Positions 6,776 to 52,286 of a DNA stretch of 64,000 nt are shown in pieces. Source of the DNA: Octopus vulgaris (Eukaryota); NCBI GenBank assembly GCA_951406725.2, contig OX597816.1, positions 60,264,001-60,328,000 of the forward strand, read 5' to 3'. Below the pieces are notes generated by a model. That model was given only the letters and a program-made list of their open reading frames with translations, did not search any database and was not told where the DNA came from. Made by a program: the position numbers and the translations under genes. Numbering within the stretch: the first letter of the stretch is position 1; the number at the start of each line of letters is the position of its first letter.

Positions 6776-7990
6776 TAAAATATAATAGGTACTCATCATC
6801 ACCATCATTGTTTAATGTCTGTTTTCCATGTTGGCATAGGTTGGACAGCTTGACAGGAGCTGGTGAGGTCAGGGGCTGCACCAAGCTCTATAGTCTGTTT
6901 TCAGTTTGGTTTCTGCTGGTGGATGCTTTTCCTAATGCCAACCACTGTACAGAATGTACTGGATGCTTTTTACATAACGTCATCACTAGTACTTTTTACA
7001 TGGCACCTTGGCTTTAGAATATCAGTTATTTGTGGCGAGCAGTGTTGAAATAAGTAAAATAGCATCAGTCATTAAATTAGTTAAATGATAACTCTTTCTC
7101 TCTACTGAATTAAACAATAACTATTTCCTCAATCTTCTTTACACACATATTTTTCTGACATTTTAATGTCACTACTTAATAAAAGTATATTTTCCTCACA
7201 AACAATGAAGGCATGGCAGTGTTGTTAAGAAGATTGCCTTTCAACCACATGGTTTTGGTCCAATCCCACTGCATGGCACCTTGAGCAAGTGTATTTTATT
7301 GTAGCCTCAGGATAGCCAAACCCTTGTGGATGTACAGGATCATGACACTTACCTCAGCAGAATCTAACTTAAACTAGCTGATGGCACATAGCTAAAACAC
7401 TCGCAAAACTACTCAAAATGAAGCCTCTGTGTAATAAATTGATTTGTTAGAAATACCAACCAAATCTCTCCCAAATCAGACTCTATTATCTTTTAAAGAA
7501 TCTGTGTAGTTTGGAGAATACACCAAATAGCTTTGAGCAGTTCTTGATACAGAATGTCTGATAAACCAGATGGCCATGGCTTGAACAACTCTGTTACAGG
7601 TCTGCTAGAATGCTCTTGATTGTAGATCAGGGCTGAACTTCTGACATTCCATGAAAGTTGCAAACGAGTTTCACTGTCATACAAGCAGTGTCATTAATTT
7701 CCAATATTCTGCAAACACGTGTTTGACCATTGGGAAATATTCCTTGCTTGGAAACAGGTGAAGGTTGGTGATAAGAAAGCTATTCAGTCATAGAAAACCT
7801 GTCTCAAAAAACCCTGTTTGACCCATGCAAGCGTGGAAGAGTGGACCTTTGAAGGATGATGATATAATTTTTAAGTTACAGGAAAAAGAAATATCATAAC
7901 TCACCAAAAATATGACAGCACAGACAAATGAAGTCAGGGCTGACTTAAGGTTAAACAACAAGAATATTGTCACAACAGCAATCCATAGAC

Positions 7991-8131
7991 CAGTATTGGG
8001 CAACCTGCAGCCTACAGGACTTTCTGAATGCCTAACAAAAAGTTACCTTGAATTTTTTTTATTGTACAGCCCATCTGATGATGAGCAATGTCTCATGTAG
8101 CTTGCTTCTTGAAAAAGGTTTCTCATCACTG
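7991..8131. mobile_element. hAT-type MITE, 141 bp
   Basis: CAGT...ACTG termini with imperfect TIRs (cagtattgggcaacc / ggtttctcatcactg). Perfect 8-bp TSD CCATAGAC (7983-7990, 8132-8139). Confidence 0.75.
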
Positions 8132-8952
8132 CCATAGACTGTAATTGTTGTACTTCCTCTTCTGGCATGGAGTGAGCTGAAATTACTACAGCTATGTTCA
8201 GATGCTGATTCTCTTCAAAGCGAAGATCTACTCACATTAAAATCTTGCTCACATATTTGGAGTGATGTCACAAGATTTTGGACCAAATAACTTAGTCAGT
8301 CACAGCATTTGTTGATAATGAATAAATTAGAAAATAGATTACTTAAAAATAAAAGTAAAAAGTAACAAATAAGAAAAAAAGTAAACAGAAACAGAAATTC
8401 CATTAACGAACATTTTATTTTGATGGAAATGTTTGTAAAACTGTCATTTTGTCAAGTTTAAGCTATACTGTCCCTCACCATTATTGGAAAGTAAGACATA
8501 TTATTGTTCTGGGTTTCTTTTGCAAATCAGTTTATATGAATTGACAGATATAAAAACAAAAATATCAAAGTTAAAGAACTGCATGATTCCAGATTATAGA
8601 ATTGGTCACACACACACAAAGCAATCATTCACACCAGTATGTGTGTATGTGCACATATATTCAAACATATACATACACGTGTTCATTGAAGTGCACATAA
8701 ATAAGTATCTGCATACATCTGCACAAACATATACATCCGCATACACATGCTACTATGCATAAATGCATGTGTATAAACAAACGCACACACATGCACAAGA
8801 TGCAAAACATGTATGCACACATTCAGCCACATGCGCGCACACGCACACATACACACACAGACCTACGCACACAGACACATATATTGCAGATATGTAAACA
8901 AGCACGCAATCACACGCAGACATACATTACATTCTCATACATCACATACATT

Positions 8953-9368
8953 CAGGTGCAGGAGTGGCTGTGTGGTAAGTAGCTTGCTTACCAACCACAT
9001 GGTTCCGGGTTCATTCCCACTGCGTGGCACCTTGGGCAAGTGCCTTCTACTATAGCCTCAAGCTGACCAAAGCCTTGCGAGTGGATTTGGTAGAGGGAAA
9101 CTGTAAAAAGCCTGTTGTATATATGTATATATATATATGTATGGGTGTATATACGTTTGTGTGTCTGTGTTTGCCCCCCCCCCCCACATCGCTTGACAAC
9201 TGATGCTGGTGTGTTTACGTCCCCGTAACTTAGTGGTTCAGCAGAAGAGACTGATAGAATAAGTACTAGGCTTCCAAAGAATAAGTCCTGGGGTCAATTT
9301 GCTCGACTAAAAGTGGTGCTCCAGCATGGCCGCAGTAAAATGACTGAAACAAGCAAAAGAGATAAAGA
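8953..9368 (+). mobile_element. SINE family A, full-length
   Basis: Head, central microsatellite and tail all match family A. Confidence 0.85.
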
Positions 9369-49058: not shown

Positions 49059-49835
49059 GGAGCACACACACACACGACATGCCTCTGCACAGTTTCCATC
49101 GATCAATTTCATTCAAAGGCAGTGGATGGCCTAGAGCTATAGAAAAAGGCACTTGCTCAAGGTGTCACACTGTGATATTGAACCCAAAACTATATGGTTG
49201 CAAAGTAAACTTCTTAACTACACAGCCAGAGTGAAAAGAAATTTAAATGAACCAAATATATCTTCGACAGTCTAGATACTCACCATGGCTGCTATTTTCA
49301 GGCTGTAAGTATCTGTACAAGAAAACTTCATTATTGCACAAGTTGCTGATATTTCTAGCAAGAATACTAATAACCACAGTTTTCTGGCAAGTTCATAGAT
49401 GAAGTTTTTACTGAGCAATATTTTTTATTTAGATGTTATTTAGCAAGTATATTTATCTAGCAAATGAGTGAGAATGTTGATGTAAAGCACGAAGTATACT
49501 GTTTAAGTTCTTTGGTATTTTCCATATTTTTACTTTACTTTGAATGATGGAGTCTTGAGAAGATCTTGGGAAGCTTTTTATGTTTGAAGGCTACATTGAG
49601 GTTTACTACAATTTGACTAAGCTGCATCACAGACTGAATAGTTTTGCTAAAGCTATTATTTTATCAAATATAATTATTCGTAAATTCTTGACCAATGTGC
49701 AGAAAAGAAAGGGCTTCAGAATGAGAAACCACCAGCCCAACCCTAACTGCAACTTTTATTTTTTCTGATCATCATTTGGGATTTCTGTTATTAAACAAAA
49801 TTATAACTACTTTAAATGTAATTACAAGTAATTAC

Positions 49836-50264
49836 ATAGGCGTAGGAGCGGCTGTGTGGTAAGTAGCTTGCTTACAAACCACACAGTTCCGGGTTCAGTC
49901 CCACTGCGTGACACCTTGAGCAAGTGTCTTCTACTATAGCCTCGGGCTGACCAAAGCATTGTGAGTGGATTTGGCAGATGGAAAGGGAAAGAAGCCCATC
50001 GTATATATATATATATATATATACATATATATGTATGTGTGTGTGTATGTGTTTGCATGTTTGTCCCCCCCAACATCACTTGACAACCGATGCTGGTGTG
50101 TTTAGGTCCCTGTAACTTAGCGGTTTGGCAAAAGAGACCAATAGAATAAGTACTAGGCCTGGGGTCGATTTGCTCAACTAAAAACCTAGGGTTGATTTGC
50201 TCGACTAAAAAGGCGGTGCTCCAACATGGCCACAGTCAAATGACTGAAACAATTAAAAGAGTAA
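49836..50264 (+). mobile_element. SINE family A, full-length
   Basis: Matches family A; ~26-bp internal tandem duplication at about 50160-50210. Confidence 0.85.
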
Positions 50265-51112
50265 GTCTAAATAAAGAAACATAAATATGCCTCAAAGTTT
50301 TGCAATTAGTTGAAAAAATAGGTTTTAAATATAATTAATACAACAAAAATATATTCCAGGATAATGATTTTCTCTCAGACATACAGAAAGGTGCAAGTAC
50401 TCCATCATCGGACTAGTAGAGGACAAGTTTTCAATTATTATCACAACTTGTGGTGCAAGTTAAGATTTTGAATGACCAAGTTCCATATTTCAGTTTAATC
50501 AGGGTGTTAAAGAAACAAATTATCATTTAATTCCAGACAAGTCCAGATTAAACAGATCTGCAATCAAAGTATTGCTGTCTAGCCTTGACCAAATTTCTTT
50601 CAAATTACATTACCATCTTGAAAAGAGAGGGAAACATTGAGTAAAGTAGCCCTACCTTAGGGAAGTGTCTTTTACTATATCCCCCAGGCCAGTGAATTTG
50701 GTTGATAAAAATTGAAAGAAACCCCGTGTGTATATATATATTATATGTGTGTTGGGGGTGGATGTGCATGCACGTGCATGTTTGTGTTTGTCCCCTACTA
50801 CTGCTTGACAACCCATGTTGGTTTACTTACATCCCTGTAACTTAGCAGTTCTGCATAGAAGGTTGATAGAACAAGTGCCAGGCTTAAAGAAAAATAATTA
50901 CTGGGGGCAATCTGTTTGACTAAAACCCCTCAAGGCTGTACCCCAGGATGGCTGCAGTCTAATAACAAAAAGTAAGCAATAAAAGATATATACATACATA
51001 TATATATATATATATATATATATATATATATACAAATTGAGATAGGGGTTGTAAATGCAACCCACCATGGGATAACATATATCCAATATACTGCTAGTGA
51101 GACACCCAACAA

Positions 51113-52286
51113 AGATAATACTCAATCACATACTTTATTAAACCACTACATAAGAATCTATAAGGTTAAACATAATAATGCAGGGTAAAACATTGTACAT
51201 GAAGGAGTGTACATAAAATAGTAATGTTATACAATAAGAAAAATACGTATAATCTCTCTATATATAAATGGCAGTTTGTCTGTCTGTGTGTCTGTCAGGT
51301 TGTACCCTCACCCTGACCACGGCTTTCAACCGATTCTGATGAAACTTGACACACACATAGCCCAATGTCATAATTCAAAACTAACGCAGCGAAAATTTTG
51401 AAAAGTCCCCCCAGTTCTGAAAAATCGATAAATTTGACATGGGTCGAGAATCTAAGCTTTTTATATGCAACACATTTTCTACAGACTGTCTAGGGGATGC
51501 AACTCGACCTTTTTAACTCTCGGAATACGTGGGGTAAGTATCCCAAAATGTATAACAATGTACAAAAATGGCAAAAAAGTGGGCAGCAATGTGAGTGACA
51601 ACAACGAAAAAGTCAAAAGTGACCAAACTGAACAAACGAATGGAAAAGGTTTTTTGGTGCACACGACAAAAGCGGTTTATAATAAACCAAGAGTTTGCAA
51701 GTAGCGTCCGAGTACCCTTAGGGTACATCAAAAATTTAAGGTAAAATGTTTGGAGTGGTAGTTATAAAGAAAGTGTAAACAAAAAAAGTATTCGAATAAC
51801 TTGCGGCTGCAGCAGCTATTAGCAGAAGTGGCGGTGTTGGGGGTAAAGTCTCGAATGTAATTTCTTCCTGGTAGGAATTGGTTGGGTTGAATTATCGATA
51901 GCTGTTTGATAGTTATTTGGGAGTGAAGAGAAGACATTGCAACCTACACATGCGCCTTCGTTCCCTAGAGGGAAAGGACTAGATTGGGATTAGTCATTGC
52001 CTACTAGGGGCTCTTACATACCCGGGCAACGCCGGGCTATGCTGCTAGTAGAACATAAATATAAGTACACATAAGGTTAAACATATAAGTACACATAAGG
52101 TTAAACATAATAATGCAGGGTTATGTGTACTTATATTTATGTTCTATTATACGTATTCTTCTTATTGTATAACATTACTATTTTATGTACACTCCTTCAT
52201 GTACAATGTTTTACCCTGCATTATTATGTTTAACCTTATAGATTCTTATGTAGTGGTTTAATAAAGTATGTGATTGAGTATTATCT
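51113..52286. repeat. Fold-back inverted duplication with 166-bp arms; left arm interrupted by a Helitron
   Basis: Left arm 51113-51252 plus 52049-52074 is the reverse complement of 52121-52286, with one mismatch seen. Confidence 0.9.
51253..52048 (+). mobile_element. Non-autonomous Helitron, 796 bp
   Basis: A|TC start; hairpin cccgggcaacgccggg then CTAG|T end. The empty site is preserved in the inverted arm and shows A|T insertion without TSD. Confidence 0.9.

What the first reader, a model, noticed from the sequence alone, without database searches (positions are those of the whole stretch)
7892..52286. Recurrent local templated copying: at least four independent insertions copied from DNA within ~11 kb
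Seen: 18662-18980 is an inverted copy of 7892-8203; 19332-19985 is a direct plus inverted copy of 16.8-17.9 kb; 41044-41649 is an inverted plus direct copy of 43.4-44.0 kb; and 51113-52286 is a fold-back. The first three carry locus-specific junctions (TE plus flank), so they are not transposition. Every event includes an inversion, and two contain filler built from short re-copied snippets. Established: polymerase-theta end joining, MMBIR/FoSTeS and LINE twin priming leave such scars. Inference: four events of different ages in 64 kb suggest an unusually active cis-templated repair or retro-copying process in this genome, which would also seed inverted repeats.
Basis: partly seen in the sequence, partly recalled or inferred. 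Interest (0 to 1): 0.75.

Follow-up and report, generated by a model that had tools for sequence, protein, structure and literature searches.

The report
Three local DNA-repair copy scars
Three short stretches of DNA were copied from 2-10 kb away into older jumping-gene copies, most likely as patches during repair of chromosome breaks, a known kind of scar that also turns up in other parts of this genome, while the fourth claimed event is an ordinary multi-copy jumping element.

Summary
Three of the four events are real, locus-specific copies. E1 (18662-18980) comes from 10.5 kb away. E2 (19332-19985) and E3 (41045-41649) are each a direct plus an inverted piece from about 2 kb away. Each interrupts a repeat whose other copies show the empty site: 0, 11 and 8 bases lost, 0-3 bases of microhomology, no target duplication or poly(A), and filler in E2. 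Contigs from three runs of three species labels bridge E1's right junction. This is the anatomy of repair-mediated duplication described in vertebrates (Pace 2009, PMC2671141). The fourth event (51-52 kb) is one copy of a dispersed element with Penelope-like architecture, with a Helitron-like element inside; it is not a local copy. In 28 background windows (1.4 Mb) I counted about 11 similar events (up to 21), or 6-15 per Mb, and one of those windows also holds three. So this window is in the upper tail, not a unique hotspot. An excess over vertebrates is neither shown nor excluded. One oddity remains: E3's two donor pieces abut within 3 bases, as in twin priming on one single-stranded template. 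The scan noted similar scars before in other genomes.

The parts
7892..8203 (-). E1 donor: unique DNA plus part of an old repeat (about 7985-8130)
18662..18980 (+). E1 copy (inverted; 11 substitutions in 316 columns), inserted with no target loss into an old MITE (mariner-like by recalled motif); ATC microhomology on the left, 1-3 bases on the right
   Evidence: right junction bridged by contigs of X2, X3, X16
16785..17265 (+). E2 donor 1: end of one SINE, unique spacer, most of a second SINE
17706..17874 (-). E2 donor 2: unique DNA with a 31-base tandem unit that is present once in the copy
19310..19334 (+). 5' stub of the old LINE-like repeat (RTE-like by recalled motif) that E2 interrupts; the repeat resumes at 19986 with 11 bases missing
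19332..19802 (+). E2 direct piece (AAG microhomology); about 1% diverged except for a 103-column SINE block with 9 substitutions and 4 gaps
19803..19849 (+). E2 filler, 47 bases: an internally repeated snippet and a short self-complementary end
19848..19985 (+). E2 inverted piece
38466..41046 (+). Young 5'-truncated LINE (859-aa open frame with endonuclease and RT domains), host of E3; its 3' UTR resumes at 41650-41715
41045..41471 (+). E3 inverted piece: mariner-type 3' end plus 3-5 bases of its flank; AT microhomology
41472..41649 (+). E3 direct piece spanning the nested MITE/mariner junction; the whole insert replaces 8 bases of a TA run
43378..43977 (+). E3 donor: two abutting segments (43378-43555 and 43553-43977) in an old mariner-type element with a nested MITE
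51033..52341 (-). E4: copy of a dispersed element with Penelope-like architecture (inverted truncated arm, tail at one end only, TA-repeat flanks); not a local copy
51254..52048 (+). Helitron-like element (TC start, hairpin, CTAG end, inserted between A and T) nested in the left arm of E4; a relative lies at about 25375-25753
   Evidence: family name from recalled terminal motifs

Best explanation
E1, E2 and E3 are three separate insertions of nearby DNA into older repeats, most likely made when germline double-strand breaks were repaired by copying a local template, and E4 is a dispersed element with a built-in inverted arm, likely Penelope-like. Shown: donors, acceptors, empty sites, base losses, microhomologies and filler. 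Inferred steps: a break forms inside an existing repeat; a 3' end pairs through 2-3 bases with DNA 2-10 kb away and copies 140-480 bases. In E2 and E3 both ends do so on the same donor strand, which gives one direct and one inverted piece. The new strands are then joined, in E2 through repeated short priming that looks like polymerase-theta/SD-MMEJ filler. The process is likely genome-wide background repair (about 6-15 recognisable scars per Mb), possibly fed by breaks from active transposons, with no sign of function.
For: Joined flanks are bridged by 17, 5 and 15 other repeat copies for E1, E2 and E3, and by none for the three donors. All 13 other LINE copies read the intact TA run where E3 sits. 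Target loss is 0, 11 and 8 bases, with no target duplication or poly(A). Pace 2009 reports microhomology 2-9 nt, deletion 1-15 nt and filler 1-68 nt for proximal duplications, none with poly(A). The hosts of E1 and E2 are much older than the copies: MITE up to 88% and LINE-like repeat up to 91% to their kin, against 3.5% and about 1% donor-copy divergence. Contigs of X2, X3 and X16 bridge E1's right junction with 1, 0 and 0 differences. Similar scars occur in background windows; 3 of 5 candidates searched genome-wide had the local partner as best match.
Against: The enzymes and the nature of the template (DNA or RNA) cannot be read from the scars. E3's two pieces abut within 3 bases, which independent invasions of duplex DNA do not predict. 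E3's junctions were not confirmed in reads because repeats swamped the tables. No empty allele at the locus itself was seen in any run. The 103-column diverged block in E2 is unexplained, and no source SINE was found in about 1.9 Mb. The match of the E2 filler to its donor is weak: one 13-mer with one mismatch, also found in 4 of 60 control regions. Background counts were curated by eye, and 1 of 5 checked candidates was a transposon end.
Confidence: 0.78

Rival explanations
1. E3, and perhaps E2, arose by twin priming on one single-stranded template: a nascent local RNA reverse-transcribed by a LINE or polymerase-theta activity, or the displaced strand of an R-loop, with both break ends annealing to the same molecule.
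For: In E3 both ends copy the + strand, and the left-end product stops at 43553, where the right end primed (43553-43558). That is the geometry of twin priming with a small internal duplication; E2's 440-base gap would be the internal-deletion form (passages of 10.1101/2024.08.27.596794). The E3 template strand is the sense strand of the mariner-type element (frame). E3 sits in a young LINE of similar age: 0.8% donor-copy against 0.65-0.84% between LINE copies.
Against: No poly(A) or target duplication. The template strands differ between E2 (minus) and E3 (plus). 'Same strand' follows from any direct-plus-inverted pair, so only E3's abutment is informative. E3 lies inside the LINE 3' UTR with 2.5 kb of LINE to its left, which simple co-integration does not explain. 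No transcript data were examined.
Confidence: 0.15
2. Replication template switching (FoSTeS/MMBIR) by a single 3' end that jumped two or three times made E2 and E3.
For: Multi-template germline insertions with reverse-then-forward switches are described in humans (passages of PMC8421209). Short microhomologies are present at most junctions.
Against: The junction letters do not separate this from two-ended repair. A single end has no evident reason to restart exactly where it first primed, as in E3. The search tool in that paper looks for templates within 100 bp, and here they are 2-10 kb away.
Confidence: 0.3
3. This window is a true hotspot, or this genome has an unusually active cis-copying process.
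For: Three events in 64 kb against 0.37-0.96 expected. The loose density of 6-15 per Mb is above the 0.08-0.65 per Mb of repeat DNA reported for vertebrates.
Against: Hundreds to thousands of 64-kb windows would hold three by chance, and one of 28 background windows does. The 200 kb flanking the window gave one clear small case, besides larger duplications. The vertebrate figure excludes repeat-containing donors and donors beyond 5 kb. Under those strict rules I could show none in at least 0.47 Mb of repeat DNA, where human density predicts 0.3-0.4.
Confidence: 0.2
4. The duplications are assembly artefacts.
For: The E3 junctions and the inner E2 junctions were not bridged in the displayed tables.
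Against: Copies differ from donors by 0.8-3.5% and sit at clean breakpoints in repeats. Donor-type and copy-type contigs of E1 both occur in three runs.
Confidence: 0.02

Closest known systems
Repair-mediated duplications (RDs), Pace, Sen, Batzer and Feschotte 2009, PMC2671141 (parts 1-6 of 8 read: abstract to methods; supplements not opened)
   Same: An acceptor of 50 bases or more interrupts a transposon; the donor is on the same chromosome nearby; microhomology, small deletion or filler; no poly(A); two-donor chimeras occur; sizes up to 619 bp (E2 about 650, E3 605).
   Different: That survey covered vertebrates only, needed single-copy donors and kept those within 5 kb. E1's donor is 10.5 kb away, and E2 and E3 copy repeat DNA, so its filter would drop most of these. 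Only 5 of its 20 chimeras had both donors close, against 2 of 3 events here, but its 80%-coverage rule biases against chimeras.
SD-MMEJ / polymerase-theta filler (PMC2943611; 8 passages read)
   Same: Complex insertions built from overlapping copies of nearby sequence and snap-back inverted repeats resemble the 47-base E2 filler.
   Different: It explains the short filler, not by itself the 140-480-base pieces copied from kilobases away; polymerase-theta involvement is untested here.
Germline MMB-TI templated insertions (PMC8421209; 12 passages read)
   Same: Germline multi-template insertions with inverted and direct pieces and junction microhomology.
   Different: Defined with templates within 100 bp; here donors lie 2-10 kb away.
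L1 twin priming (10.1101/2024.08.27.596794; 12 passages read)
   Same: Two primers on one template strand, an inverted plus a direct piece, and an internal duplication or deletion at the inversion point (E3, E2).
   Different: No poly(A), no target duplication, and the template is a local repeat or unique DNA rather than the LINE's own RNA.
Penelope-like element insertions (PMC8557442; 12 passages read)
   Same: For E4: an inverted 5'-truncated copy beside the sense copy, a tail at one end only, microsatellite targets.
   Different: The tail here is about 175 bases, not 30-40, and no reverse transcriptase or GIY-YIG partner was tied to this family.

Membership tests
Repair-mediated duplication (Pace 2009) | Insert of 50 bases or more interrupting a transposon whose two parts are collinear | tested here: met
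   E1, E2 and E3 flanks bridged by 17, 5 and 15 other copies
Repair-mediated duplication (Pace 2009) | Microhomology, small deletion or filler at the breakpoints, and no poly(A) | tested here: met
Repair-mediated duplication (Pace 2009) | Donor within 5 kb (proximal class) | tested here: inconclusive
   Met for E2 and E3 (about 2 kb); E1 at 10.5 kb falls in the paper's distant group, of which a part was still judged repair-type
Repair-mediated duplication (Pace 2009) | One identifiable donor locus | tested here: met
   One near-identical or full-length partner each. The paper's single-copy filter is described there as a technical limit; parts of E1-E3 are repeats and would not pass it.
Repair-mediated duplication (Pace 2009) | Orthologous empty site in an outgroup or another individual | tested here: inconclusive
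   Organisms A, B and D carry E1; organism C has no cover over parts of the stretch at 91% likeness; skip joints cannot be told from other repeat copies
LINE twin-priming insertion (canonical TPRT) | Poly(A) or element tail at the 3' junction, and target-site duplication | tested here: not met
   Neither at E1-E3; 0-11 bases deleted instead
LINE twin-priming insertion (canonical TPRT) | Direct and inverted pieces adjacent on one template strand | tested here: met
   E3 pieces overlap by 3 bases; E2 pieces lie 440 bases apart
LINE twin-priming insertion (canonical TPRT) | RNA intermediate | not tested
   No RNA runs laid; no intron in the copied pieces to test
Penelope-like element (E4) | Dispersed copies with variable 5' truncation and an adjacent inverted copy | tested here: met
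   50 rows; 5 of 8 distinct loci fetched show the inverted pair with different spacers (L026/L027, L028, L032, L033, L034)
Penelope-like element (E4) | One-sided tail and microsatellite target | tested here: met
   TA-repeat flanks; tail at one arm only, about 175 bases
Penelope-like element (E4) | Hammerhead ribozyme in the repeat | tested here: inconclusive
   The 3' box is kept in all 5 loci; the 5' box is canonical in 1 of the 5 arms that cover it. No Rfam hammerhead hit, and the minimum-energy fold did not clearly give the motif.
Penelope-like element (E4) | Linked RT plus GIY-YIG frame | tested here: inconclusive
   Frames beside L031/L032 gave no relevant Pfam hit and lie in a segmental duplicate, so they are not tied to the family

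The most novel reading that the evidence does not exclude
This cephalopod-type genome collects local repair copies several times faster than vertebrates, and two-piece scars such as E3 are made by twin priming of both break ends on one local single-stranded template (nascent RNA or an R-loop strand), that is, RNA-guided or R-loop-guided break repair in cis fixed in an animal germline.
Probability: 0.12. Interest if true: 0.6.

Novelty: new member of a known kind. Interest (0 to 1): 0.2.

Why it matters
As it stands it extends a vertebrate-described class of repair scar to a repeat-rich invertebrate genome and gives a first rough density (about 6-15 per Mb, so some tens of thousands genome-wide if the sample is typical). 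Two searches listed no paper on such scars in octopus; that is a narrow search, not proof of absence. Such copies seed close inverted repeats and could move splice or regulatory sequence locally, but nothing here shows a function. If a uniform scan showed a several-fold excess, or a link between template strand and transcription, it would bear on germline repair in transposon-rich genomes.

Tried and rejected
E4 as a local fold-back: rejected, dispersed family. The pair 1920-2465/10122-10671 as a fifth event: rejected, 21 other full-length copies at 91% in the sample. E2 as made during insertion of its host repeat (it sits 25 bases from the truncated 5' end): rejected, because the host is much older than the copy. 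An early idea that E1 copies an exon: not supported, the middle is an old repeat; not tested further. A nearby SINE as source of E2's diverged block: none above 91.4% in about 1.9 Mb. Reads on E3: uninformative; the 41046-41649 skip joint is expected from other LINE copies. Lack of cover in organism C: not evidence. An autonomous partner for E4: not found; the Rfam scan gave only below-threshold hairpin matches. An automated interrupted-repeat scan was too noisy alone (1382 background calls); after filtering it recovered E3 and one background case but missed E1 and E2, so counts rest on curation by eye. Background candidate C4:120020.5k: rejected, transposon end. One search scored only 40 of 206 candidates and did not list the local partner, so it neither confirms nor rejects that case. 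Paper search returned nothing relevant.
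Full report
Setting. The window is G000:C3:60264001-60328000 in a 2.8-Gb, 227-contig genome. Earlier scan notes call this genome an octopus; I did not test that label. The window is rich in microsatellites and SINE-like copies. At least 29 of its 64 kb match repeats elsewhere in my sample. 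I found no host gene, but looked only at long open frames.

Observation.

E1. 18662-18980 is the reverse complement of 7892-8203, with 11 substitutions in 316 columns. Only donor and copy match over the full length; the middle part is an old repeat. The copy sits in an old MITE. Among 13 other copies, most continue straight on where E1 begins, and the joined flanks are bridged by 17 hits with no base lost. Microhomology is 3 bases on the left and 1-3 on the right. Contigs of runs X2, X3 and X16 (organisms A, B, D) span 18901-19361 or more with 1, 0 and 0 differences, bridging the right junction. Separate donor-type and copy-type contigs occur in all three. The same contigs pass E2's left junction by only 26-29 letters, short of the tool's 31-letter rule.

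E2. A direct copy of 16785-17265, a 47-base filler and an inverted copy of 17706-17874 interrupt an old LINE-like repeat 25 bases from its truncated 5' end, with 11 bases lost. The inverted donor is essentially single-copy. Outside one block the copy differs by about 5 of 469 columns. A 103-column SINE block differs by 9 substitutions and 4 gaps, and no source for it was found; later gene conversion or a switch to another SINE copy is inferred, not shown. The filler repeats a short snippet and ends in a short self-complementary stretch, as in SD-MMEJ complex insertions (PMC2943611 passages). Its best match to the donor is one 13-mer with one mismatch, which 4 of 60 control regions also give.

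E3. The insert replaces 8 bases of a TA run in the 3' UTR of a young LINE; all 13 other copies read the intact run. It is the reverse complement of 43553-43977 followed by 43378-43555, with 5 substitutions in 605 columns. It runs 3-5 bases past the mariner-type end and includes the junction with a nested MITE, which has one near-identical partner in the genome. The two donor pieces overlap by 3 bases at the point where the right end primed. This is twin-priming geometry (bioRxiv 2024.08.27.596794 passages), but with no poly(A) or target duplication. Laid contigs did not test these junctions.

E4. The arm matches many unlinked loci at 94-98%. Five of eight distinct loci fetched carry their own inverted pair with different spacers, mostly between TA repeats and with a tail at one end. 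That is the insertion architecture described for Penelope-like elements (PMC8557442 passages). Hammerhead-like boxes are only partly kept, and no coding partner was tied to the family. The window copy has a deletion in its left arm and a Helitron-like element at 51254-52048. It is a transposon, not a copy of local DNA.

Background. I took 28 windows of 50 kb at fixed positions on 20 contigs, plus 100 kb on each side of the window. Pair-private 19-mer chains were 90 within windows against 2.2 expected from between-window rates, but many are tandem arrays, transposon ends, fold-backs or one segmental cluster (C1a). I inspected 30 background regions by eye. Eleven looked like repair copies and about ten more are doubtful, several of those seen only in the rule-based list; about 2 chance matches are expected. 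Of five candidates searched genome-wide, three had the local partner as best match, one was a transposon end and is not among the 11, and one was inconclusive. The density is 6-15 per Mb, or 0.37-0.96 per 64 kb, so P(3 or more) is 0.006-0.07. Window C13a has three in 50 kb. Seven of the 11 include an inversion.

Comparison with what is known. Pace et al. 2009 (parts 1-6 of 8 read; supplements not opened) define repair-mediated duplications with this anatomy: 824 in human, and 0.08-0.65 per Mb of repeat DNA across ten vertebrates. Their filter drops repeat-containing donors and donors beyond 5 kb. My loose count is therefore not comparable. Under their strict rules I could show no case in at least 0.47 Mb of repeat DNA, where human density predicts 0.3-0.4 and the upper bound is 4-6 per Mb. 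An excess is neither shown nor excluded. PMC5110952 (part 1 of 4 read) describes the related class 2 templated insertions from distant donors. Earlier scan notes report similar single scars in other genomes; one gave the lead to PMC8421209, which I checked.

Verdict. There are three real repair-type local copies of a known kind and one ordinary transposon. Break repair by local template copying is the best explanation (0.78); the enzymes and the nature of the template are inferred. The exact abutment in E3 and a possible genome-wide excess are the only open points of interest. Family names for the MITE, RTE-like, mariner-type and Helitron-like elements rest on recalled motifs, not on library hits.

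Noticed in passing
window 16970-17072 against 19518-19612: A SINE block inside the young E2 pair is about ten times more diverged than its surroundings; the copy has family-type letters where the donor has private ones, and the reverse. Possible gene conversion or template switch between SINE copies.
   Followed up: partly
window 38466-41715: Young 5'-truncated LINE with an intact 859-aa frame, 98.5-99.6% like other copies, inserted into a SINE with at most a 4-base target repeat.
   Followed up: partly
window 57146-57957: Head-to-head SINE arrangement forming an 89% inverted repeat with a further partial copy.
   Followed up: no
window 25024-26800: Very long compound microsatellite tract around a Helitron-like element at about 25375-25753.
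   Followed up: no
G000:C8:20034509-20035124 (L115): A Helitron-like element is flanked by a 115-base direct duplication of host DNA, although such elements are recalled to make no target duplication.
   Followed up: no
G000:C13:20022692-20034553 (L139-L140): Complex local rearrangement: an 860-base inverted duplication whose spacer holds an 860-base direct copy from 9 kb away (97-98%).
   Followed up: partly
G000:C2:20027224-20027394 (L084): Another two-piece scar: a direct plus an inverted piece from donors 238 bases apart, about 1 kb away.
   Followed up: partly
G000:C3:20008162-20012830 (L087-L088): A 2.1-kb near-perfect fold-back (99.9%) with a 446-base spacer, mostly unmatched in the sample.
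   Followed up: no
G000:C3:60207793-60226511 (L221-L223): A tandem duplication of about 9.4 kb at about 99% identity, 40-55 kb upstream of the window.
   Followed up: no
L031/L238 (C5) and L032/L237 (C4): An interchromosomal duplicate of at least 11 kb at about 95% identity.
   Followed up: no
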